Of a DNA stretch of 64,000 nucleotides, positions 3,745-64,000 are shown in pieces (position 1 is the first letter of the stretch; each line of letters starts with the position of its first letter). The notes beneath the pieces are model-generated. The model saw only the letters and a list, made by a program, of their open reading frames with translations, had not been told where the DNA came from and searched no databases. The stretch is from Mustelus asterias (lineage: Eukaryota): contig NC_135818.1 of NCBI RefSeq assembly GCF_964213995.1, positions 71,424,001-71,488,000 on the forward strand. Reading direction: 5' to 3'. Position numbers and translations under genes: made by a program.

Positions 3745-4810
3745 CGTGAGTGGGCAAATGGAATTCAATCAGGAAAGGCGTGAGGTAGTGCATTTAGGGA
3801 GGGCAAACAAAGCAAAGGAATGCTCAATAAACGGGAAGATGTTGAGAGGGGTTGAGGAAGTGAATGAACTTGGAGTGCATGCCCACAGGTCCTTGAAGGT
3901 GGCAGGGCAGGTGGACAAGGTGGTCAAGAAAATATATGGGCTGCGATTTTCTGAGCATTCATGCCAGTGAGATTTTCCTGTCCTGCTGCAGTGAATGGAG
4001 ATTTGGCTTGTCTCCAAATTCGCCGTCTTCGCGGCAGCGGGACCGTGGGCGTGAACGGGCAGTAAGATTGCGTGCATGGCATGTTTTCCTCTTTTGGAAA
4101 TCTTCCGGCCGTTCACGCCAGTGGAATTTTCTGGTCCCGCTGCAGCAAGCTGAGATTTGGTCGAACGCCAAGATTTCCGACCTCGTTGGCAGTGGCGGCG
4201 GGGTGTGAATGGCCAGAAAATTCTGGCCATTGAATACAAAAGCAGAGATGTAATGACGGATCTGTATAAAACTCTGGTTGGACCACAGCTGGAATGTTGT
4301 GTATAGTTCTGGTCACTGCGTTACAGAGAGGTCATAATTGCTCTGGCGAGAGTGCAGAGGAGATGGATAAGACTTGCAAAATTGCAGCAATGGAGAGAGA
4401 TTGGATAGGCTGGGGTTGTTTTCCTCAGAGCAGAGGAGGCTAAGAGGCAAACAAATTGAGGTTGACTCATTGAAGGGCCCAGATAGGGTAGACAGGAAAA
4501 ACTTGTTCCCCCGAGCAGAGGGATCAATTACCAGGAGATACAGACTTAAGATGACTGGTGGAAGGGTGAGAGAGAAAACTTTGTCACCCAGAGGGTGGCG
4601 GGCATCTGGAAATCACTGCTTAAGTTGGTGGTTGAGGCAGAAACCCTCCAATCATTTAAAAGGTATCTAGATCTGCATCTGAAGTGCTGTAACCTGCAAG
4701 GTTACGGACCAGGTCCTGGAAAGTGGGATTAAAATGAATGTTTTTTTCCCCTCTTTTTTGGGCAGCACAGACACAATGGCCTGAATGGCCTCTTCCTGCA
4801 CTGTAACTTT
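3745..4810 (+). mobile_element. CR1 3' relic interrupted by a MITE (3938-4229)
   Basis: QMEFN..EVVHLGR, ELGVH, VVKK|..EYKSR, LGLFS.E.RRLRG motifs. Confidence 0.8.
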
Positions 4811-15879: not shown

Positions 15880-17232
15880 ATTCTAGCCAATTTACTTTCA
15901 TAATCCATTTTCTCTGTCTTTTATCAGTTTCTTGGCTCTCCCCTTGCTGAATTCTAAAATGCTCTCAATTCTCAGGCTTACTACATTTTTTAGGCAACTT
16001 AATAGGCCTCTTCCTTTGATCTAATGCCATCCTTAACTTCACTTGTTCGCCATGGTTGGATTGCTTTTCCTTCTGGGGTTTTGTACCTCAAAGGAATGTA
16101 AGTTTGTTGTAGATCATGTAATAATTCATGAAGTGCTAGCCATTGTCTGTCTACTGTCATACCATTTAATGTAACTTCCCAACACACCACAGCCAATTTG
16201 ACCCTCTTACCTTCGTAATTTCCTTTGCTTAGATTACAGTCTCCCGGTTTGGGATTGCATGACATCACTTATTATAAAATCCCATCATATTATGGTCATT
16301 AAAGTCTCCTTTACAACAAGATTATTAATTAGCTCTTTCTCATTGCACAATATTAGATCTAACGTAGCCTGTTCTCTAGTTGGTTCCTCAACAGACTGTT
16401 CTAGAAAACCACATTGTAAACATTCCAGGAATTTGTCCGCCACAGGTTAGGACAAATTCCAAATGTAGGTTTCCCCAGTTCATATTTAGATTGAAGTCCC
16501 CAGTGATCACTATACGCATTACCCTCTAATATCCTAATTTACACAATTGCCACCGATCTTTGGTGGCCTATAAACAACCCGTGCCAATGTTTGCTGCCCT
16601 CTGCTGTTTCTTAACTCCACCCAAACTGTTTTGACACCTTGATCTTCTGATCTAAGGTCCTTAGATCAGAAGAAGGCGGCACGGTAGCACAGTGGTTAGC
16701 ACTGCTGTTTCACAGCTCCAGGGACCTGGGTTCGATTCCCGGCTTGGGTCACTGTCTGTGTGGAGTTTGCACATTCTCTTCGTGTCTGCGTGGGTTTCCT
16801 CCGGGTGCTCCGGTTTCCTCCCACAGTCCAAAGATGTGCGGGTTAGGTTGATTGGCCATGGTAAAATTGCCCCTTAGTGTCCTGGGATGCGTAGATTAGA
16901 GGGATTAGCGGGTAAAATATGTAGGGATATGGGGGTAGGGCCTGGGTGGGATTGTGGTCGGTGCAGACTTGATGGGCCGAATGGCCTCTTTCTGTACTGC
17001 AGGGTTTCTATGATTTCTCACGACTGTACTGATCATATCCTTTATTAGCAGCACTACCCCTTCTTATTTTGCCTATTCTTCTCAATGCTGAATGCTCCTG
17101 AATATTCAGTCCCAAGTCTTGAATACCCCACAACCATGACTCTGTAACGGCAATCAGTATAGATCTGCTTCCTTTTACTTATGCTGCCAATTCACCGAGC
17201 TTGTTGTGAATAATCCATGCACTCACATAGAG
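15880..17232 (-). mobile_element. Old CR1 ORF2 (endonuclease region) relic split by a SINE
   Basis: GDFNL, LEQ.VEEPTREQA.LDL, PW.T.EVKD.IRSKEEAY motifs. Confidence 0.75.
16675..17017 (+). mobile_element. HE1-type V-SINE inserted in a CR1 relic
   Basis: Full head GGCGGCACGGTAGCACAGTGG through the GGTTTCTATGA tail. Confidence 0.9.
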
Positions 17233-17271
17233 GGCAGGATTTTCCGACCGCACTCACCCTCGCCATTCTCC

Positions 17272-32959: not shown

Positions 32960-33698
32960 CAAAGAACAAAGAACAAAGAACAGTACAGCACAGGAAACAG
33001 GCCCTTCGGCCCTCCAAGCCTGTGCCGCTCCTTGGTCCAACTAGACCAATCGTTTGTATCCCTCCATTCCCAGGCTGCTCATGTGACTATCCAGGTAAGT
33101 CTTAAACGATGTCAGCGTGCCTGCCTCCACCACCCTACTTGGCAGCGCATTCCAGGCCCCCACCACCCTCTGTGTAAAAAACATCCCTCTGATATCTGAG
33201 TTATACTTCGCCCCTCTCACCTTGAGCCCGTGACCCCTCGTGATCGTCACCTCCGACCTGGGAAAAAGCTTCCCACCGTTCACCCTATCTATACCCTTCA
33301 TAATCTTGTACACCTCTATTAGATCTCCCCTCATTCTCCGTCTTTCCAGGGAGAACAACCCCAGTTTACCCAAGTTCTCCTCATAGCTAAGACCCTCCAT
33401 ACCAGGCAACATCCTGGTAAACCTTCTCTGCACTCTCTCTAACGCCTCCACGTCCTTCTGGTAGTGCGGCGACCAGAACTGGACGCAGTACTCCAAATGT
33501 GGCCTAACCAGCGTTCTATACAGCTGCATCATCAGACTCCAGCTTTTATACTCTATACCCCATCCTATAAAGGCAAGCATACCATATGCCTTCTTCACCC
33601 ACCTTCTCCACCTGTGTTGCCACCTTCAAGGATTTGTGGACTTGCACACCTAGGTCCCTCTGTGTTTCTATACTCCTGATGACTCTGCCATTTATTGT
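32960..33698 (-). mobile_element. 5'-truncated CR1 (ORF2 C-terminus, ORF 33041-33598)
   Basis: LYRTLVRPHLEYCVQFWSP, LERVQRRFTRM, TRGH; (TTCTTTG)n tail. Confidence 0.92.
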
Positions 33699-33792
33699 AT
33701 ATACATTACCACAGCGCTCAGAGTCCACACAGTTCTCAGTACATACCTTCAATTGCTCATTGATCCTGAGCAAGCACTGTGTAGAAATAATC

Positions 33793-42874: not shown

Positions 42875-43173
42875 GAAGTTTATTGGTGTCACAAGTTGGC
42901 TTACATTAACATTGCAATGAAGTTACTGTGAAAGTCCCCGAGACGCCACACTCCGGCACCTGTTCGAGTACACTGAGGGAGAATTTAACATGGCCAATTC
43001 ACCCAAGCAGCAGGTCTTTCGGACTGTAGGAGGAAACCGGAGCACCCGGAGGAAACCCATGCAGACATGGGGAGAACGTGCAGACTCCACACAGACAGTG
43101 ATCCAAGCCGGGAATCGAACCCGGGTCCCTGGTGCTGTGAGACAGCATTGCTAACCACTGTGCCACTGTGCCG
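42875..43173 (-). mobile_element. V-SINE type B tail
   Basis: Head, V-domain, type B tail. Confidence 0.88.
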
Positions 43174-43174
43174 C

Positions 43175-44030
43175 TAAGTAAAAGAAGCCAAATACTATTC
43201 CATAATAGTTGCTACAATATCAGATGTGAGTCATGTGGACCAATGAACATTAACTTTAAGACCAGCGATAGTGAAGTTGTAGAGCAATTTCTTTGTTACT
43301 TTGATTTCTCAGCTACAGCTCCATGCATCTGAGTGTCTGGAGACAACTGTTTTGGAAATCATTGTAAATTCAGGTTTGGACTCAGAAATTTGGACAGAGC
43401 TTGAATAATGCTGCAAATATGGCAGGAAAATATTCAGGTCTACAAGCAAGATTGAATAATGCAAGCTCCTATGCATTCTTCATCCCCTGTTCCATTCCCT
43501 GACTGAATTTAATTTGCAATGCTGCAGCTAAACCCTGTGAGATATCTGGACATTCTTTTGACTTTATTCAAAACTTGCGTGCCTTCTTTTTCGGTTTCCA
43601 TGCATCGGTGGGATATATTGCAACCACACTTGGAGCAAGCAAATGAAAACATTTGATGGTCAACAAAATATATGGTCCACTTGTGCAGATGCTGTCTTGG
43701 CTTTGAAAATGACTTTTGCTGATATAAAGGAAACCTTATCAGACATATCCGCATCAAATTCAGAAAATCCACATGTGAAAACTGAAGCAAAATCCTTAGC
43801 AGAGACGTTTCAAAAGTATGATATTGCTGTTTTTACTGTTTTGTGGAACTATTTACTTCAGAGTATTCATGCCATCAACAAATTGCTGCAAAATGCTGAT
43901 GCAACTTTATTGAATGCTGTGCAATTGTTAGCCTCAGCCCAAAGTATTGTCATGGAAGTTCAAGATGACTCTATCTCGGTGGAAGTAGAGGCGCTAACAT
44001 TAACAAAATATACAGGTCCCTCTGATAATG
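43175..44030 (+). pseudogene. hAT transposase relic, catalytic core part (ZMYM1/Tip100-like)
   Basis: Translates to VKEAKYYSII..SDVSHVDQ*, NAANMAGKYSGLQARL, FIPC, then the 43643 ORF (W..LL..I..INK.LQ); stops and frameshifts present. Confidence 0.85.
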
Positions 44031-44109
44031 AGAACCATAGAACCATAGAAAATTACAGCTCAGAAACAGGCCTTTTGGCCCTTCTTGTCTGTGCCGAACC
44101 ATTTTATGC

Positions 44110-47025
44110 CTAGTCCCACTGACCTGCACTTGGACCATATCCCTCCACACCCCTCTCATCCATGAACGCGTCCAAGTTTTTCTTAAATGTTAAAAGTGCA
44201 TTTACCACTTTATCTGGCAGCTCATTCCACACTCCCACCACTCTCTGCGTGAAGAAGCCCCCCCTAATATTCCCTTTAAACTTTTCTCCTTTCACCCTTA
44301 ACCCATGCCCTCTGGTTTTTTTCTCCCCTAGCCTCAGTGGAAAAAGCCTGCTTGCATTCACTCTATCTATACCCATCAAAATCTTATACACCTCTATCAA
44401 ATCTCCCCTCAATCTTCTACGCTCCAGGGAATAAAGTCCCAACCTATTCAATCTCTCTCTGTAACTCAGCTTCTCAAGTCCTGGCAACATCCTTGTGAAC
44501 CTTCTCTGCACTCTTTCAATCTTATTTACATCCTTCCTGTAACTAGGTGACCAAAACTGTACACAATACTCCAAATTCGGCCTCACCAATGCCTTATATA
44601 ACCTTACCATAACACTCCAACTTTTATACTCGATACTCCGATTTATAAAGGCCAATGTACCAAAGGCACTCTTTACGACCCTATCCACCTGTGACGTCAC
44701 TTTTAGGGAATTCTGTACCTGTATTCCCAGATCCCTCTGTTCAACTGCACTCTTCAGAGTCCTACCATTTACCCTGTACGTTCTACTTTGATTTGTCCTT
44801 CCAAAGTGCAATATCTCACACTTGTCTGCGTTAAATTCCATTTGCCATTTTTCAGCCCATTTTTCTAGTTGGTCCAAATCCCTCTGCAAGCTTTGAAAAC
44901 CTTTCTCACTGTCCACTACACCTCCAATCTTTGTATCATCAGCAAACTTGCTGATCCAATTGACCACATTATCATCCAGATCATTGATATAGATGACAAA
45001 CAACAATGGACCCAACACCGATCCCTGCGGCACACCACTAGTCACAGGCCTCCACTCAGAGAAGCAATACTCCACAACCACTCTCTGGCTTCTTCCATTG
45101 AGCCAGTGTCTTATCCAATTTACTACCTCCCCATGTATACCTAGCGACTGAACCTTCCTAACTAACCTCCCATGAGGGACCTTGTCAAAGGCCTTGCTGA
45201 AATCCAGGTAGACAACATCCACCGCCTTCCCTTCATCCACTTTCCTGGTAACCTCCTCGAAAAACTCTAATAGATTGGTCAAACATGACCTACCACGCAC
45301 AAAGCCATGTTGACTCTCCCTAATAAGTCCCTGTCTATCCAAATATTTGTAGATTCTATCCCTTACCACACCTTCCAATAACTTGCCCACCACCGACGTC
45401 AAACTTACTGGCCGATAATTTCCCGGATTTCTTTTGGAACCTTTTTTAAACAACGGAACAACATGAGCCACCCTCCAATCATCCGGCACCTCCCCCGTGA
45501 ATACTGACATTTTAAATATGTCTGCCAGGGCCCCTGCAAGTTCAACACTAGCTTCCCTCAAGGTCCGTGGGAATACCCTGTCCGGTCCTGGGGATTCATC
45601 CACTCTGATTTGCCTCAAGACAGCGAGCACCTCCTCCCCTTTAATCTGTAAAGGTTCCATGGCCTCCCTACCAGTTTGCCCTATTTCCGTAGACTCCATG
45701 CCCGTTTCCTCAGTAAATACGGATGCAAATAAACCATTTAGTATCTCCCCCATCTCTTTTGGTTCCATACACAGTCTACCACTCTGGTCTTCAAGAGGAC
45801 CAATTTTATCCCTCACTATCCTTTTGCTCCTAACATACCTATAGAAGCTCTTTGGATTTTCCTTCACTCTGTCTGCCAAAGCAACCTCATGTCTTCTTTT
45901 AGCCCTCCTGATTTCCCTCTTAAGGAGCTTCTTGCACTTTTTATACTCCTCGAGCATCTGATGTGTTCCTTGCTGCCTGTACATTTCATACAACTCTCTC
46001 TTCCTCTTAATCAGTGTTACAATCTCCCTCAAGAACCAAGGTTCCTTATTCCTATTTACTTTGCCTTTAATCCTGACAGGAACATACAAACTCTGCACTC
46101 TCAAAATTTCTCCTTTGAAGGCCTCCCACTTTCCATTTACATCCTTACCAGAGAACAGCCTGTGCCAATCCACACTTCCCAGATCCCTTCTCATTTCATC
46201 AAATTTGGCCTTTTTCCAGTTCAGAACTTCAACCCGAGGACCAGATCTATCCTTATCCACGATCAGGTTGAAACTAATGGCATTATGATCACTGGATCCA
46301 AAGTGTTCCCTCACACTCACATCCATCACCTGCCCTAACTCATTTCCCAATAGGAGATCCAATATCGCATCCTCTCTAGTTGGCACCTCTATATACTGAT
46401 GTAGGAAATTCTCCTGAACACATTTTACAAACTCTACCCCGTCTAAACCTTTAACAGTATGCGAGTCCCAATCTATATGTGGAAAATTAAAATCCCCTAC
46501 TATCACAACTTTGTGTTTCTTGCAGTTGTCAGCTATCTCTCCGCTGATTTGCTCCTCCAATTCTCGCTGACTATTGGGTGGTCTATAATACAAGCCCATT
46601 AATGTGGTCATACCTTTCCTGTTTCTCAGCTCCACCCATAGGGCCTCTGTAGACAAGCTCCCTAATCTATCCTGCCTGAGTACCGCTGTAACATTTTCCC
46701 TGACCAACAATGCCACCCCCCCACCTTTTATCCCTCTGCCTCTATCCCGCCTGAAACATTGGAACTCTGGAACATTGAGCTGACAGTCCTGCCCCTCCTG
46801 TAGCCAAGTTTCACTAATGGCTATAATGTCATATTTCCATGTGTCTATCCACGCCTTCAGCTCATCTGCCTTCCCCACAATACTCCTGGCATTGAAATAG
46901 ACACACCTCAAAAAATTATTTCCACCACACTCTACCCTTCCATTTGTGATTTTGCTTGAACTAACCTGTCTTTTTACCCCTGCTCCACTATCTGCTCTGG
47001 CACTCTGGTTCCCACCCCCCTGCAA
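44110..47025 (-). CDS. CR1 ORF2: apurinic-like endonuclease + reverse transcriptase (971 codons; no AUG start, ORF track begins at TTG)
   Basis: EN motifs YFNARS, ISETW, YRPP, GDFN, LDLLL, SDH; RT motifs PGPD, NYRPVSLTS, QHGF, YLDFSKAFDKV, GVPQGSVLGPLLF, FADD; CR1 C-terminal TRGH and FFTQRVV..WN.LP. Confidence 0.95.
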   Translation of the reverse strand: MQGGGNQSARADSGAGVKRQVSSSKITNGRVECGGNNFLRCVYFNARSIVGKADELKAWIDTWKYDIIAISETWLQEGQDCQLNVPEFQCFRRDRGRGIKGGGVALLVRENVTAVLRQDRLGSLSTEALWVELRNRKGMTTLMGLYYRPPNSQRELEEQISGEIADNCKKHKVVIVGDFNFPHIDWDSHTVKGLDGVEFVKCVQENFLHQYIEVPTREDAILDLLLGNELGQVMDVSVREHFGSSDHNAISFNLIVDKDRSGPRVEVLNWKKAKFDEMRRDLGSVDWHRLFSGKDVNGKWEAFKGEILRVQSLYVPVRIKGKVNRNKEPWFLREIVTLIKRKRELYEMYRQQGTHQMLEEYKKCKKLLKREIRRAKRRHEVALADRVKENPKSFYRYVRSKRIVRDKIGPLEDQSGRLCMEPKEMGEILNGLFASVFTEETGMESTEIGQTGREAMEPLQIKGEEVLAVLRQIRVDESPGPDRVFPRTLREASVELAGALADIFKMSVFTGEVPDDWRVAHVVPLFKKGSKRNPGNYRPVSLTSVVGKLLEGVVRDRIYKYLDRQGLIRESQHGFVRGRSCLTNLLEFFEEVTRKVDEGKAVDVVYLDFSKAFDKVPHGRLVRKVQSLGIHGEVVNWIRHWLNGRSQRVVVEYCFSEWRPVTSGVPQGSVLGPLLFVIYINDLDDNVVNWISKFADDTKIGGVVDSEKGFQSLQRDLDQLEKWAEKWQMEFNADKCEILHFGRTNQSRTYRVNGRTLKSAVEQRDLGIQVQNSLKVTSQVDRVVKSAFGTLAFINRSIEYKSWSVMVRLYKALVRPNLEYCVQFWSPSYRKDVNKIERVQRRFTRMLPGLEKLSYRERLNRLGLYSLERRRLRGDLIEVYKILMGIDRVNASRLFPLRLGEKKTRGHGLRVKGEKFKGNIRGGFFTQRVVGVWNELPDKVVNALLTFKKNLDAFMDERGVEGYGPSAGQWD

Positions 47026-47027
47026 AT

Positions 47028-47969
47028 CTAGTTTAAACGCTCCCCAATAACACTAGCAAATCTCCCTGCAAGTATATTGGTCCCCTTGTAGTTTAGGTGT
47101 AACCCGTCTCTCTTGTACAGGTCGCACCTGCCCCAAAAGAGGTCCCAATGATCCAAGAATTGGAAACCCTGCCCCCTGCACCAGTTCCTCAGCCATGTGT
47201 TTATCCGCCCAAGCATCCTACTCCTGCCCTCATTGGCATGTGGCTCAGGTAGCAATCCTGAGATTACTACCCTCGGGATCCTGCTTTTTAACTTCCTTCC
47301 AAGCTCTTTGTACTCACTCTTTAGGACCTCCTCACTCTTCCTTCCCACGTCATTGGTACCGACGTGTACCACGACATCTGGCTGATCACCTTCCCACTTT
47401 AGAACGCTGTGCACGCGATCAGAGACATCGCTGACCTTGGCACCTGGGAGGCAACAAACCATGCGGGAGTCTCTGTCCCGACCACAGAACCTCCGATCTG
47501 TACCTCTGACCATTGAGTCCCCTATCACTACTGCTCTCCTCTTCTTCATCCCACCCTTTTGCGCTGTAGAACCAGACGCAGTATCAGAGTTCCGGCTGTC
47601 GCAGCTTGTCCCAGGTAAAGCATCTCCCACAACAGTATCCAATTCAGTATACCTGTTGTGGAGGGGTATGGCCACAGGGGAACCCTGCTCTGCCTGTCCT
47701 TTCACACTGCCATTTCCTCTCCTTACAGTAACCCAATTTCCTGTGCTCTGCTGCTTAGGTGTAACTATCTCCCTAAAGCTACTGTCTATAAACTTCTCAT
47801 TCTCCCGAATTAGATGGAGGTCATCAAGCTCCTTCTCCAGTTCCCTAACACGCTTTGCTAGCAGCTGCAGCTGAATGCATCTTTTGCAGGTGCTGTCGTC
47901 AGGGATACCGGAGGTCTCCCTGATCTCCCACATCCTGCAAGAGGAGCATTCCAACATCCTGCCTGGCAT
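47028..47969 (-). CDS. CR1 ORF1 (313 aa from ATG 47969): CxxC...CxxC zinc finger/coiled coil + SGNH esterase-like domain
   Basis: CSSC...CKRC followed by the heptad-rich LQLLAKRVRELEKEL; SGNH blocks GDS, PGA, HVGTND, DGLH typical of CR1 ORF1 esterases. Confidence 0.92.
   Translation of the reverse strand: MPGRMLECSSCRMWEIRETSGIPDDSTCKRCIQLQLLAKRVRELEKELDDLHLIRENEKFIDSSFREIVTPKQQSTGNWVTVRRGNGSVKGQAEQGSPVAIPLHNRYTELDTVVGDALPGTSCDSRNSDTASGSTAQKGGMKKRRAVVIGDSMVRGTDRRFCGRDRDSRMVCCLPGAKVSDVSDRVHSVLKWEGDQPDVVVHVGTNDVGRKSEEVLKSEYKELGRKLKSRIPRVVISGLLPEPHANEGRSRMLGRINTWLRNWCRGQGFQFLDHWDLFWGRCDLYKRDGLHLNYKGTNILAGRFASVIGERLN
47031..47037 (-). other. Candidate -1 ribosomal frameshift slippery site U_UUA_AAC
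   Basis: Minus strand reads CGT TTA AAC TAG (end of ORF1); the -1 frame TTT AAA CTA GAT TTG CAG runs straight into ORF2. Confidence 0.7.
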
Positions 47970-48299
47970 TTTTTTTAGTCTGGGGAAAAACAAGAATAAA
48001 CTTTCTGGGAAAGAAAAAACTTACTCTCGCCTCTGCCTGTTCTCGCCGAAGCCCGTTTTGAGCCTAGGCCCTTCAGCTCTCACTCTGCCCCCTGCTCACT
48101 CTGCTGCCCGCTAACGACGCTGCCCGCTCAAAGGTGCGGCCTACTTTTAAACCCTCCAAAACCTTCCCAGGCTGCTGCTGGGCCTACTTCCTGTTTTGAA
48201 AAAAAAACCTCCGATTTTTTTCACTAATTTAACTGAAAAATAAACAAATAAATAAAATGCACAAACAGCTCCCTTACCCTCAGCCTGCTCCTGTGGAAC

Positions 48300-48890
48300 A
48301 ATGATGCAGGAAGTTATATTTTGATGAAACCAGAGACAACGAAATCACTTTAGAAGGGAAAGAGAAGAGCATCGGTGAGACTGTCAATGTTATTTGCGAC
48401 ACAATAATGGTGCAATTGCAGAGTAGAAGTGAATCTCTGAAGAAAATGTGATTTATTTTGTGTGCTTTTTGACAGAAGATTGGATGAGAATGTTAAAAGC
48501 CACTATAGTAAGAAATTAAATGAATTCCACCTCGAGGACATAGACACAAATTTTTTTGAAGATGAAATGAAATAATTCACTCATTTCATCAATAATTATG
48601 AGCACTGTGGTTCAAAATCACCAGCTGATTTGTACAGACTTGGACATGATAGTTTGCAGGCAACCTTTCCAAACATCAAAACCATTCTGAAATTATTTTT
48701 AACCATACCTGTCACAAATGCTTCCAGTGAACATTCTTTTTCTGTGTTGTAAAGAGCTAAACACTATTTGCGAAGTATGGTGAGTCCAAAGCATATGCCA
48801 AATATTGATGACTGAAAGTGCATCTTTACAACATTTTACTTACAATGATGTAATTGATGAAGAAAAAATGTGGAAGAAAAGCTATCTAAA
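48300..48890 (+). pseudogene. hAT transposase relic, C-terminal part with hATC dimerisation motif
   Basis: RKLYFDE...; TFPNIKTILKLFLTIPVTNASSEHSFSVL*RAKHYLRS. Confidence 0.85.
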
Positions 48891-49569
48891 TTACCATGCC
48901 AATGAGAGATGAAGCAAGAAAATCTCTGACCCCCCTACAGTATTCTCTTGTTTAAATTCTATTTGTCAAAATGGACCATTGCTGGTCTGATATAATGGCT
49001 GCAGCTGGTCCATCGCACTCAAGATTGGCCTTCAGAAAGTCTTTAAGACAGAGAATGTAATCCTGCCACTGACCTTAGACTTGGACACACTGGACATTCC
49101 ACACACTTGAGTTTATGGCAACAACTTCTTTGGGAGAATTTTCCCATCACATCTGAGGGCGGACTATGCAAAGGCCCAGTGACCTCGGGCGGGATTTTCT
49201 GGTTTTGGGGTGAGCATGGCCGGAAAATTCCCCCACTGATTTTCTGAGAGGATGTCAGGAAGTTAACTTTTATTTTTGAAATTTTAAGAGGCTCTGAAAT
49301 ATACTGAATGGCAGCATATGCATCTTGTTGAATGGAGTGTTTACTCCTGAACTGGACTGTCTCATTCTCTCTTGTACTGGCCTGTGCTACAATGATGTAA
49401 TCGACTGATTTTTCCATCTTGTTTTTCATTAGCAAGTTCCATGTTTGCTCACCTCAAGACACCCCAGAACTTCCAGCTCAAAATGCCAGCTAACATTGAT
49501 TACATCATGGAAGTCCTGGCGCATGCGCATGTGTGCTGAAAGAGCACCAAATTTAAACCTCTGATCGAG

Positions 49570-49843
49570 GGGCGGCACAGTAGCACAGTGGTTAGCACTG
49601 CTGCTTCACAGTGCCAGGGACCTGGGTTCAATTCTCGGCTTGGGTTACTGTCTGTGTGGAGTTTGCATGTTCTCCCCGTGTCTGCGTTGGTTTCCTCCGG
49701 GTGCTCTGGTTTCCTCCCACATTCTGAAAGATGTGCTGGTTAGGTGCATTGACCCAGACTGTGGCGACTAGGGGAATTTCACAGTAACTTCATTGCAGTG
49801 TTAATGTAAGCCTTACTTGTGACTAATAAATAAACTTTAACTT
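49570..49843 (+). mobile_element. V-SINE type B tail
   Basis: Head, V-domain, type B tail. Confidence 0.88.
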
Positions 49844-50279: not shown

Positions 50280-50622
50280 CATAGAATCATAGAAACCCTA
50301 CAGTGCAGAAAGAGGCCATTCAGCCCGAGTCTGCACCGACCACAATCCCACCCAGGCCCTATCCCCTTATCCCTCCACATTTATACACTAATCCCTCTAA
50401 CCTACGCATCTCAGGACACTAAGGGGCAATTTTAGCATGGCCAATCAGCCAAACCCGCACATCTTTGGACTGTGGGAGGAAACTGGAGCACCCGGAGGAA
50501 ACTCACGCAGACACGAGGAGAATGTGCAAACTCCACACAGACAGTGACCCAAGCCGGGAATCGATCCCAGGTCCCTGGAGCTGTGAAGCAGCAGTGCTAA
50601 CCACTATGCTACCGTGCCGCCC
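50280..50622 (-). mobile_element. HE1-type V-SINE, CR1-type tail
   Basis: Full-length, young-looking copy. Confidence 0.9.
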
Positions 50623-50964
50623 TTAATCGTCATCTTAAAGGAAAGTCTATCCTTTAAGATGACATATGCAAGTCCCCTGTAATGTTTATCCCAATTTTAA
50701 GAGTCTTCCTGATGCAACGTTGATCCTTATGAAACTTGGCTAGTTAAAAGGCTTTAGGAAAGCATGTCACTTAAGATGGCATATGCAAGTCTCCTTTAAG
50801 CTGATGTGAACTCGGTATTACAGAACCTAGTGCAGCTTGAGAATCTGGAGTCATGTTCCACCACCGCTGGAACATTGAACTTTTTCACTTGATTCTTAAT
50901 TGAAAATCTTATTGAGACTTTGGTGTAGGCATGGAAGAGTCACACTACACGTAAAATCCTAATC

Positions 50965-61610: not shown

Positions 61611-62477
61611 TAAGACCATAAGACCATAAGACATAGGAGCGGAAGTAAGGCCATTCGGCCCATCGAGTCCACTCCACCATTCAATCATGGTTGATTTCAA
61701 CTCCATTTACCCGCTCTCTCCCCATAGCCCTTAATTCCTCGAGAAATCAAGAATTTATCAATTTCTGTCTTGAAGACGCTCAACGTCTCGGCCTCCACAG
61801 CCCTCTGTGGCAATGAATTCCACAGACCCACCACTCTCTGGCTGAAGAAATTTCTCCTCATCTCTGTTCTAAAGTGACTCCCTTTTATTCTAAGGCTGTG
61901 CCCCCGCGTCCTAGTCTCCCCTGTTAATGGAAACAACTTCCCTACGTCCATCCTATCTAAGCCGTTCATTATCTTGTAAGTTTCTATCAGATCTCCCCTC
62001 AACCTCCTAAACTCCAATGAATATAATCCCACGATCCTCAGACGTTCATCGTATGTCAGGCCTACCATTCCTGGGATCATCCGTGTGAATCTCCGCTGGA
62101 CCCGCTCCAGTGCCAGTATGTCCTTCCTGAGGTGTGGGGCCCAAAATTGCTCACAGTACTCCAAATGGGGCCTAACCAGTGCTTTATAAAGCCTCAGAAG
62201 TACATCCCTGCTTTTGTATTCCAAGCCTCTTGAGATAAATGACAACATTACATTTGCTTTCTTAATTACGGACTCAACCTGCAAGTTTACCTTTAGAGAA
62301 TCCTGGACTAGGACTCCCAAGTCCCTTTGCACTTTAGCATTATGAATTTTGTCACCGTTTAGAAAATAGTCCATGCCTCTATTCTTTTTTCCAAAGTGTA
62401 CGACCTCGCACTTGCCCACGTTGAATTTCATCAGCCACTTCTTGGACCACTCTCCTAAACTGTCTAAATCTTTCTGC
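61611..62477 (-). mobile_element. 5'-truncated young CR1 (ORF 61697-62431) inserted into a PLE repeat
   Basis: Uninterrupted 244-codon CR1 C-terminus; (TCTTATGG)n tail; TSD AGTCCA (61605-61610 / 62496-62501). Confidence 0.92.
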
Positions 62478-63349: not shown

Positions 63350-64000
63350 ATTAGTAACAGGTAATGTAGAGGTTGTTGAAAAGGAGGAACTTAAAATAAT
63401 CACCATTATTAGGGAAAAAGTATTGAGCAAGCTATTCGGATTTAAGACAGACAAGTGCCCAGGACCTGATGGCCTACATCATAAGGTCTTAAAGAAAGAG
63501 ACAGCAGATATAGTGGAGACATTGGTTATAATATTCCAAAATTCCCTGGATTCTGGGAAGGTTGCAGTGGGTTGGAAAAGGGCTAAAGTAACGCTTCTGT
63601 TCAAAAAGAAAGAAAGGCAGAAAGTAGGAAACAATAGACCAGCTAGTTTACATATGTCTTTGGGAACCTGTGGAATCTATTATTAAGGAAATAGTAATGG
63701 TACACTTGAAAAGTCAAACTGCAATCTATCATAGTCAGTATGGTTTTATGAAGGGTAAATCATGTTTGACTAATTTGCTGGAGTTTTTCGAAGATGTGAC
63801 AAGCAAAGTGGATAATGTGGCTCCTGTAATGTAGAATATCTGGACTTCCAGAAGGCATTTGATAATGTGCCGCACAAAAGGTTAATACAAGGTAAGATCA
63901 CACGTGGTTGGGGAAAATATATCAGCTTGGATAAAGAATTGGCTAGCCAATCCTATGCAAAGAGTGAAGATAAATGGGTCTTTTTCTGGTTGGCAAGCTG
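63350..64000 (+). mobile_element. CR1 ORF2 RT relic running off the window end
   Basis: DKCPGPDGLH, IFQNSLDSG, SQYGFMKGKSCLTNLLEFFE, YLDFQKAFD. Confidence 0.88.

What the first reader, a model, noticed from the sequence alone, without database searches (positions are those of the whole stretch)
46960..47060. Coronavirus-type -1 frameshift heptamer couples ORF1 and ORF2 of an intact CR1 LINE
Seen: ORF1 ends GAG CGT TTA AAC TAG, placing U_UUA_AAC in the exact X_XXY_YYZ register immediately before the stop. The -1 frame is open from 8 codons upstream (TGT TAT TGG GGA GCG TTT AAA CTA) through all of ORF2. ORF2's first AUG is codon 139, downstream of the endonuclease catalytic N (FNARS) and E (SETW), so AUG initiation cannot yield a complete EN. 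About 6-10 nt 3' of the heptamer is a G-rich tract (GCAGGGGGGUGGGAACC..., with a GGU-GGGA-ACC tetraloop and possible AUUUGC/GCAGAU pairing) that could be the stimulator. Established: UUUAAAC is the coronavirus slippery site, and mammalian L1 ORF2 uses termination-reinitiation. Inference: this LINE makes a gag-pol-like ORF1-ORF2 fusion of about 1286 aa. From memory, amniote CR1s have a similar TTTAAACTAG junction, so the feature may be clade-wide and partly noted before.
Basis: partly seen in the sequence, partly recalled or inferred. Interest (0 to 1): 0.8.

Follow-up and report, generated by a model that had tools for sequence, protein, structure and literature searches.

The report
Ribosomal frameshift signal in CR1 retrotransposons
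The commonest jumping-gene family of sharks, reptiles and birds appears to make its copying enzyme the way retroviruses and coronaviruses do, by letting the ribosome slip back one letter at a conserved signal, which is not how this class of element is usually thought to work.

Summary
Observation confirmed. An intact shark-type CR1 LINE (minus strand, about 48299-44031) ends ORF1 with U_UUA_AAC plus a stop. ORF2 lies in the -1 frame and has no AUG until 94 codons past the first endonuclease catalytic residue.

The signal is clade-wide. ORF1 relatives end in Leu-Asn in 92 of 164 scorable proteins (18 of 23 named vertebrate ones). The residue before Leu-Asn avoids amino acids whose codons cannot end in U (1 of 92, against 41 of 92 one position earlier). 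Published consensuses found without using the heptamer carry it in 12 of 13 readable junctions, with the stop codon free to vary. Distant unnamed lineages show Gln-Gly-Asn or x-Lys-Asn instead, which fit G_GGA_AAC and A_AAA_AAC, the other top eukaryotic slippery sites.

Best reading (0.8): programmed -1 frameshifting gives a 1286-aa ORF1-ORF2 fusion. The proposed downstream hairpin is not supported (z about 0). A G-run about 10 nt downstream recurs, but its role is unknown. The main rival is AUG-independent reinitiation; 3 of 18 junctions have a UAAUG stop-start. Nothing was tested at the bench. I found no report in the library, but the 1997 CR1 papers could not be read.

The parts
44031..48299 (-). 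Full-length CR1 LINE with both ORFs intact. The 3' end is firm; the 5' end is approximate and rests only on a possible 4-5 bp flanking duplication.
   Evidence: only full-length copy in the window
47970..48299 (-). 5' UTR (approximate)
   Evidence: sequence upstream of the ORF1 Met; boundary inferred
47028..47969 (-). ORF1, 313 aa: CxxC...CxxC zinc-finger-like motif, coiled-coil helix (29-69), disordered linker (72-141), SGNH/GDSL esterase with GDS (S152) and DGLH (H291); ends Leu-Asn-stop
   Evidence: PF13472, E 1.5e-12; PDB 4C1B, E 7.5e-42
47044..47081 (-). Hairpin ending 6 nt 5' of the heptamer (-14 kcal/mol); possible modulator, conservation not shown
   Evidence: (28 of 1393 windows of the element are as stable)
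47031..47037 (-). Slippery heptamer U_UUA_AAC in X_XXY_YYZ register, covering the last two sense codons of ORF1
   Evidence: conservation
47028..47030 (-). ORF1 stop UAG directly 3' of the heptamer; relatives use UAG, UAA or UGA
47011..47020 (-). G-run (G6-U-G3) starting 10 nt 3' of the heptamer; recurs in relatives; candidate stimulator of unknown kind
   Evidence: (G4Hunter 1.3, five windows of the element score higher; no G4 in the MFE)
46912..47031 (-). 40-codon Gly/Ser-rich linker in the -1 frame between the slip site and the endonuclease; no AUG; near-cognate UUG, AUC and AGG only
44110..47052 (-). ORF2 frame (-1 relative to ORF1), 980 aa from stop to stop
46276..46896 (-). APE-type endonuclease (aa 53-259; NARS, ETW, GDFN, SDH motifs present)
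   Evidence: (PF03372, PF14529)
46609..46611 (-). First in-frame AUG of ORF2, inside the endonuclease domain
44770..45435 (-). Reverse transcriptase domain (aa 540-761; FADD at 703)
   Evidence: (PF00078, E 8e-36)
44031..44109 (-). 3' UTR ending in an 8-nt tandem repeat (TTCTATGG-type), without a poly(A) tail

Best explanation
The element is transcribed as one RNA. Most ribosomes translate ORF1 and stop at the codon right after U_UUA_AAC. A minority slip back one base with tRNA-Leu and tRNA-Asn on the heptamer (UUA AAC re-pairing on UUU AAA) and continue through a flexible linker into endonuclease and reverse transcriptase, making a 1286-aa ORF1p-ORF2p fusion at a fixed low ratio, as in gag-pol. 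The pause is most likely supplied by the stop codon immediately 3' of the heptamer together with the G-run 10 nt downstream (a bound protein or a weak or intermolecular structure), not by a classical pseudoknot. The fusion would tether the enzyme to ORF1p assemblies through the coiled coil. SHOWN here: anatomy, frames, absence of AUG, conservation of heptamer, register and wobble base, and free choice of stop. INFERRED: that ribosomes slip, the efficiency, the nature of the stimulator, and the fate and role of the fusion (the element encodes no recognisable protease).
For: (1) Anatomy. (2) ORF1 relatives end Leu-Asn: 47 of 55 scorable hits at 200 bits or more; 92 of 164 with the DxxH motif among 232 proteins; 18 of 23 named vertebrate proteins that reach the C-terminus. 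(3) Wobble test: the residue before Leu-Asn is E/K/Q/M/W in 1 of 92 and D/N/H/Y/F/C in 29 of 92; one position earlier the counts are 41 and 8 (Fisher p 3e-13, or 5e-10 on 72 distinct tails; rows are related, so p is overstated). Thirteen chemically unrelated residues occur there, spread over the tree. (4) The -1 frame reads Phe-Lys-Leu in gene models or frameshifted copies from rays (P0035, P0101), stork and ibis (P0099, P0117, P0132, P0133, P0156, P0159, P0178) and unnamed P0068, P0248 and P0165. In the birds it stays open about 95-100 codons to the endonuclease. (5) DNA: in the supplement of PMC13343379, junctions found by anchors that do not contain the heptamer show TTTAAAC in 12 of 13 fully readable cases. 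Over 18 junctions with a stop it is TAG 11, TAA 6, TGA 1. (6) Distant unnamed lineages have Gln-Gly-Asn-end (9 of 9 GN ends are preceded by Gln) or x-Lys-Asn (13 proteins, 12 at one offset, 0 of 13 preceded by a pyrimidine-only residue). Of 62 non-LN tails, 29 fit X_XXA_AAY against a shuffle mean of 7.9 and a maximum of 17 in 2000. [quoted passage not shown]
Against: There is no translation evidence of any kind. No stable 3' structure: z from -0.27 to +1.83 over nine downstream windows, no Rfam match, and the best long-range partner is no better than shuffles (-24.7 against -19.4 to -24.8). Three of 18 junctions carry UAAUG with the AUG in the ORF2 frame (ScyCan_CR1-1a, SquAca_CR1-17a, SquAca_CR1-6c). 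Most ORF2 database proteins with a readable endonuclease motif have a Met upstream of it (65 of 66), though they are in the database because they have one and the position varies from 1 to more than 100 residues. The terminal Leu sits at the end of an amphipathic helix in the model (294-312), so part of its conservation could be protein-level. Of 164 scorable proteins, 72 do not end in LN. One consensus (EubMac_CR1-1, low-support lower-case) lacks the full heptamer, and two have it without a stop directly after (HypSab_CR1-13, ScyCan_CR1-13). The GN and KN groups have no DNA, host or downstream ORF confirmed, and that pattern was noticed after looking at the data.
Confidence: 0.8

Rival explanations
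1. Termination-reinitiation. Ribosomes stop at the ORF1 stop and restart in the -1 (= +2) frame at or near it, on AUG where present (SART1-type UAAUG) or on a non-AUG codon (L1-type), giving a free ORF2p. The conserved heptamer and G-run would be a reinitiation signal.
For: UAAUG in 3 of 18 junctions. A UUG lies 1 nt after the stop in this copy. SART1 uses UAAUG plus a downstream structure (passages in PMC10275272, and PMC3708506). L1 ORF2 works with its AUG changed to any sense codon (passage in PMC1965478). Many relatives have a Met in the linker.
Against: In 15 of 18 junctions there is no AUG at the overlap, and the codon there varies freely. Reinitiation does not explain a fixed U at the wobble position before UUA, or the apparent swap among the U-, G- and A-heptamers. 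Linker Met positions are not conserved, and in birds the frame is open about 80 codons between the junction and the first Met.
Confidence: 0.13
2. Both routes operate, or the signal is protein-level or vestigial: Leu-Asn is kept for the esterase C-terminal helix, and ORF2p comes from another RNA (internal promoter, 5'-truncated or spliced transcript).
For: Leu312 ends a predicted helix. AG acceptor-like sites lie near the junction in this copy, and bird gene models enter the -1 frame about 16 codons upstream. Two consensuses begin at or inside the heptamer (ScyCan_CR1-1b and -14). ORF1-less CR1-group variants exist (PMC13343379).
Against: The crystallised ZfL2-1 esterase chain (171 aa) aligns only to profile position 307 and ends two residues later. 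The last three residues of the model have mean pLDDT 56. Protein selection cannot fix synonymous codons or the wobble base. In a crocodilian consensus a -1-frame stop lies between the best acceptor-like site and the heptamer (read by eye). This copy has no AUG for a truncated RNA to use before the endonuclease.
Confidence: 0.05
3. Polymerase (transcriptional) slippage adds a base at T3A3, so that some RNAs have ORF1 and ORF2 in frame.
For: It would give the same fusion product. Some database copies read straight through the junction in the -1 frame (P0035, P0101).
Against: The runs are only three bases long; productive polymerase slippage generally needs longer runs (established knowledge, recalled). 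Codon register would be irrelevant to it, yet register is conserved. The read-through proteins enter the -1 frame upstream of the heptamer. No family of intact in-frame fusions was seen (1 hit among 2992 candidates; weak evidence).
Confidence: 0.02

Closest known systems
Programmed -1 ribosomal frameshifting at U_UUA_AAC (coronavirus ORF1a/1b; retroviral gag-pol type)
   Same: Identical heptamer in the X_XXY_YYZ register; downstream polymerase ORF in the -1 frame without its own start; the alternative heptamers match the known shiftiest set (PMC5009743).
   Different: The host is a non-LTR retrotransposon with no capsid or protease. No pseudoknot or strong hairpin is found 5-9 nt downstream; there is a G-run instead. 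The stop abuts the heptamer (recalled as also true of Rous sarcoma virus, barley yellow dwarf virus and equine arteritis virus; not checked here).
Canonical vertebrate CR1 LINE with esterase ORF1 (CR1 subgroup 7 / ORF1 type IVB of PMC4120745)
   Same: Zinc finger/leucine zipper plus SGNH esterase ORF1, APE plus RT ORF2, tandem-repeat 3' end.
   Different: Nothing differs as an element. The passages and searches seen do not describe how its ORF2 is translated.
SART1 UAAUG termination-reinitiation and mammalian L1 AUG-independent ORF2 translation
   Same: Bicistronic LINE RNA with ORF2 made at low level; SART1's ORF2 is in the same relative frame; 3 of 18 CR1 junctions contain UAAUG.
   Different: Those give a free ORF2p and are not described with a slippery heptamer. 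Here most junctions lack the AUG, and the conserved part lies 5' of the stop.
Zebrafish ZfL2-1 (L2 clade, esterase ORF1)
   Same: Homologous esterase (PDB 4C1B). Recalled from Kajikawa et al. 2012 (not readable here; search did not find it): ORF2 was proposed to be made by suppression of the ORF1 stop, which would also be an ORF1-ORF2 fusion.
   Different: In-frame readthrough rather than a -1 shift; the solved chain does not end in Leu-Asn.

Membership tests
-1 programmed ribosomal frameshift signals | Slippery heptamer X_XXY_YYZ in register with the upstream ORF | tested here: met
-1 programmed ribosomal frameshift signals | -1 frame open from the heptamer through a functional downstream domain that lacks its own start | tested here: met
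   relatives vary in having a linker Met
-1 programmed ribosomal frameshift signals | Heptamer conserved beyond what the protein needs (synonymous and wobble positions; swaps between valid heptamers) | tested here: met
   12 of 13 DNA junctions; the heptamer swaps are seen in protein only
-1 programmed ribosomal frameshift signals | 3' stimulatory pseudoknot or stable stem-loop 5-9 nt downstream (coronavirus type) | tested here: not met
   single-sequence folding only, no covariation test possible
-1 programmed ribosomal frameshift signals | Some other stimulator (adjacent stop, protein-bound motif, G-quadruplex) | tested here: inconclusive
   adjacent stop in 18 of 20 junctions seen and a G-run in most; G4Hunter 1.3 is not exceptional within the element
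-1 programmed ribosomal frameshift signals | Trans-frame product or heptamer-dependent reporter output | not testable with these tools
   needs a reporter, ribosome profiling or mass spectrometry
Canonical CR1 LINE (esterase ORF1) | APE endonuclease plus RT in ORF2 | tested here: met
Canonical CR1 LINE (esterase ORF1) | ORF1 with zinc finger/coiled coil and SGNH esterase | tested here: met
Canonical CR1 LINE (esterase ORF1) | 3' end of short tandem repeats without poly(A) | tested here: met
Canonical CR1 LINE (esterase ORF1) | RT phylogeny inside the CR1 clade | not tested
   no RT tree was built; the junction and ORF1 resemble, by eye, consensuses labelled CR1 in PMC13343379
SART1-type UAAUG termination-reinitiation | Overlapping stop-start with AUG | tested here: not met
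   absent in this copy; present in 3 of 18 relatives

The most novel reading that the evidence does not exclude
Esterase-bearing CR1 LINEs throughout jawed vertebrates, and related lineages that use G_GGA_AAC or A_AAA_AAC, all make their reverse transcriptase as a gag-pol-like fusion by -1 frameshifting. The shift is driven by a non-canonical stimulator (stop codon plus G-run, possibly a natural G-quadruplex or host-protein-dependent signal). This would make -1 frameshifting the normal route to ORF2p in the dominant retrotransposon family of most vertebrates, and it may be unreported.
Probability: 0.5. Interest if true: 0.85.

Novelty: new variant of a known kind. Interest (0 to 1): 0.72.

Why it matters
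How LINEs translate ORF2 is a long-standing open question, answered so far by reinitiation (L1, SART1). The passages found in a 2016 review of frameshifting name no -1 signal in a LINE's ORF1-ORF2 junction. CR1-group elements are dominant in most vertebrates and cover 22-34% of shark and ray genomes (PMC13343379). A conserved -1 signal would mean that their active enzyme is an ORF1p-ORF2p fusion, that annotations starting ORF2 at an internal Met are wrong, and that retrotransposition assays need the intact junction. It would also raise the possibility that host anti-frameshift factors restrict them. It supplies a short, directly testable cassette with an unusual stimulator; the same review says natural G-quadruplex use was not yet known.

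Tried and rejected
Downstream hairpin or pseudoknot: not found; no Rfam match in 46700-48400. Long-range pairing of the G-run within the element: no better than 12 block shuffles. G-quadruplex: not in the MFE, and G4Hunter is not exceptional. A second junction in the window: none; the other copies are fragments without it. DNA of relatives: the scan of bacterial and archaeal genomes gave 13 loci at 24-30% identity; I read 4 of the 13 and none had a CR1 junction. Plasmids gave no match. The supplements of PMC7140322 had no match to two motifs. Natural in-frame fusions: 1 hit, a gene model. G_GGA_AAC or A_AAA_AAC junctions among the vertebrate consensuses: none of the 11 hits lay at an ORF1 end. 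A clean negative control from the L2-like cluster was not obtained: none of its 13 rows ends in LN, GN or KN, but two have an internal LN. The tree is the quick version; the careful search did not finish. Splicing and polymerase slippage were considered and given low weight (see rivals). Hosts of the Gln-Gly-Asn and Lys-Asn groups remain unknown because the cluster look-up could not be made. Literature: ten searches found no paper tying CR1 to a slippery site or a frameshift. Kapitonov and Jurka 2003, Kojima 2005 and an id entered for Kajikawa 1997 were not held, and Haas 1997 was not tried. These early papers may already mention the overlap and suggest a frameshift, so novelty is not established. 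The bioRxiv version's supplements are closed and might hold further consensuses.
Full report
Observation. The stretch lies on the minus strand of a full-length LINE running from about 48299 to 44031. ORF1 (47969-47028, 313 aa) ends ...Glu-Arg-Leu-Asn-stop, with TTTAAAC at 47037-47031 in the register T TTA AAC and TAG directly after. The -1 frame is open from 47052 to 44110 (980 aa). Its first Met is codon 148 (46611), after NARS at 54 and ETW at 81. A -1 slip on the heptamer would give 1286 aa.

What the element is. ORF2 has an APE endonuclease and an RT; ORF1 has an SGNH esterase, homologous to the solved ZfL2-1 esterase. A zinc-finger-like motif, a long helix and a disordered linker precede the esterase. 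The 3' end is an 8-nt tandem repeat. The best named ORF1 relatives are from rays and sharks at 55-63% identity, then coelacanth, chimaera, frog, turtles and a lizard, so the host is inferred to be an elasmobranch. This is the canonical vertebrate CR1 layout (passages of PMC13343379; PMC4120745). I built no RT tree. The window has no second copy that includes the junction.

Conservation in the ORF1 frame. Of 92 hits, 63 have the DxxH motif; 55 of these score 200 bits or more, and 47 of the 55 end in Leu-Asn. Pooling searches gives 232 proteins, 164 with the motif and 92 ending Leu-Asn. Among 32 named vertebrate proteins, 23 reach the C-terminus and 18 end Leu-Asn; the other five end IN, LK, LNY or IF, or run on in the -1 frame. 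The residues before the dipeptide vary widely, and so does tail length.

The wobble test. If the first U of the heptamer matters, the codon before Leu must end in U, which excludes Glu, Lys, Gln, Met and Trp. These occur at 1 of 92 there, against 41 of 92 one residue earlier and 31 of 92 two earlier. Residues whose codons end only in a pyrimidine occur at 29 of 92 against 8 and 3. Fisher p is 3e-13, or 5e-10 on 72 distinct tails; relatedness inflates both. The position holds 13 unrelated residues spread over a quick tree, which a protein constraint does not readily explain.

Conservation in the ORF2 frame. Copies or gene models that read the -1 frame across the junction show Phe-Lys-Leu in rays (P0035, P0101), stork and ibis (seven models) and three unnamed proteins. 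In the birds the frame continues about 95-100 codons to the endonuclease, with the first Met mostly late. Leu-Asn-stop in one frame with Phe-Lys-Leu in the other forces TTTAAAY. Gene models are open by construction, so the openness itself is weak evidence.

DNA of relatives. I could see only 400-character windows of the consensus library in the supplement of PMC13343379, read by eye. A search for the motif gave 23 hits, of which 17 are at an ORF1 end: crocodilians, sharks, rays, chimaera, coelacanth, and rows AmiCal, AquCat and AldAff. Three more junctions came from variant terms. To avoid selecting on the motif I anchored on the G-run (all 48 hits shown) and on codons for the HL motif (22 hits). 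These gave 15 junction rows. One begins inside the heptamer and one is cut before it. Of the 13 readable rows, 12 carry TTTAAAC; the exception is a low-support lizard row. Over 18 junctions with a stop, it is TAG 11, TAA 6 and TGA 1; two rows have the heptamer with no stop after it. The first two bases of the preceding codon vary. A G-run follows in most rows. These consensuses contain many indels, so I did not use them to judge open frames.

Apparent heptamer swaps. Among distant unnamed esterase ORF1s, nine end Gly-Asn, always after Gln, and thirteen (three of them) have Lys-Asn, twelve at the same offset, never after a pyrimidine-only residue. These fit G_GGA_AAC and A_AAA_AAC. Of 62 tails not ending LN, 29 fit X_XXA_AAY; shuffles gave a mean of 7.9 and a maximum of 17. 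[quoted passage not shown] This is the signature expected if slipperiness, not amino acid identity, is selected. It was noticed after the fact, and DNA, host and downstream ORF are unconfirmed (could not be made; one search found no such junction among the vertebrate consensuses).

The stimulator. There is no Rfam match and no long-range partner above shuffles. G4Hunter is 1.3, with five stronger windows in the element. A -14 kcal/mol hairpin ends 6 nt upstream. It recalls the attenuator 4 nt 5' of the SARS site, but 28 of 1393 windows are as stable and conservation was not shown. So the coronavirus-type stimulator is absent. What recurs is an abutting stop and a G-run, and I infer that these supply the pause.

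Rivals. Reinitiation is the serious one. SART1 uses UAAUG, L1 tolerates loss of its AUG, three of 18 CR1 junctions contain UAAUG in the right frame, and 65 of 66 database ORF2 proteins have some Met before the endonuclease motif (ascertained by gene calling, at scattered positions). It does not explain the fixed wobble U, the synonymous codon choice or the swaps. Protein-level selection may contribute to the Leu (helix 294-312) but not to the rest. Splicing and polymerase slippage fit poorly. I put -1 frameshifting at 0.8 and reinitiation at 0.13.

Relation to what is known. It works like retroviral and nidoviral -1 frameshifting and meets the sequence-level criteria, fails the pseudoknot criterion, and is untested functionally. 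Ten library searches found no paper linking CR1 to a slippery site. In the first 300,000 of 449,034 characters of PMC5009743, CR1 does not occur, and LINE ORF2 is put down to unusual initiation. 'Frameshift' does not occur in the main texts of PMC13343379, PMC3905857, PMC4316615, PMC7140322, PMC4120745 or PMC3708506. For every paper I saw search passages only, plus supplement windows for PMC13343379; the two passages of PMC11835228 concern retroviruses. The 1997 CR1 papers were not readable and may already suggest a frameshift. From recall, ZfL2-1 was proposed to make an ORF1-ORF2 fusion by stop suppression.

Verdict. A real, clade-wide signal with strong comparative support for programmed -1 frameshifting in a LINE family, an atypical and unresolved stimulator, and uncertain priority. 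New variant of a known kind; interest 0.72.

Noticed in passing
window 47044-47081 (-) and the 100 nt upstream of the heptamer: A hairpin ending 6 nt 5' of the slippery site, and a second one further upstream; the 100 nt fold at z -3.5. It could be an attenuator or a by-product of coding.
   Followed up: partly
proteins P0258, P0264, P0267, P0268, P0269, P0272, P0274, P0309, P0324 and P0260, P0280, P0318, P0320, P0340, P0342, P0351, P0352, P0354, P0279, P0080-P0082: Distant esterase ORF1 groups ending Gln-Gly-Asn or carrying Lys-Asn at a fixed offset, fitting other slippery heptamers; hosts unknown.
   Followed up: partly
proteins P0114, P0127 (N-termini) and P0259, P0282, P0296, P0298, P0315 (C-termini): Phe-Phe or Phe-Leu pairs near the expected junction that might reflect a U-rich heptamer in further lineages; not tested.
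   Followed up: no
PMC13343379 supplement rows ScyCan_CR1-1b and ScyCan_CR1-14: Two consensuses begin at or within the heptamer, which may mean a 5'-truncation or module-swap hotspot at the junction, or only curation.
   Followed up: no
PMC13343379 supplement rows ScyCan_CR1-1a, SquAca_CR1-17a, SquAca_CR1-6c: Heptamer and UAAUG stop-start occur together in these shark subfamilies, so both routes to ORF2p could coexist.
   Followed up: partly
PMC13343379 supplement rows SquAca_CR1-18 and SquAca_CR1-3: A heptamer-stop-G-rich look-alike also sits in the 5' UTR, upstream of the ORF1 start.
   Followed up: no
proteins P0015 and P0095: CR1 ORF1 and ORF2 proteins 62% identical to this element are labelled Pseudomonas aeruginosa and Carnobacterium maltaromaticum on 3-4 kb contigs: most likely vertebrate DNA contaminating bacterial assemblies.
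   Followed up: no
proteins P0030, P0070, P0072, P0084, P0101, P0113: RefSeq isoforms of host genes in sharks and rays incorporate CR1 ORF1 or ORF2 sequence (exonisation or model artefact).
   Followed up: no
window 61703-62476 (-), 33056-33701 (-), 3755-4729 (+), 16002-17235 (-), 63670-63996 (+) and others: Many older, truncated CR1/L2-type ORF2 fragments; none includes the ORF1/ORF2 junction.
   Followed up: no
window about 49570-49830 (+), 50280-50625 and 43000-43180 (-): Short interspersed-repeat-like sequences that look like shark SINEs or LINE tails (recognised from recall, not tested).
   Followed up: no
window about 43270-44030 (-) and 48300-48900 (+): The flanks look like a degraded DNA-transposon-type coding region interrupted by the CR1 insertion (an ORF of 183 aa at 43562-44113 +); not analysed.
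   Followed up: no
L001 4001-4460 and L006 4001-4450: Esterase ORFs of LINE-like type (DGGLHLN motif) on short contigs of two Sedimenticola genome bins, without a -1 junction; possibly host DNA.
   Followed up: partly
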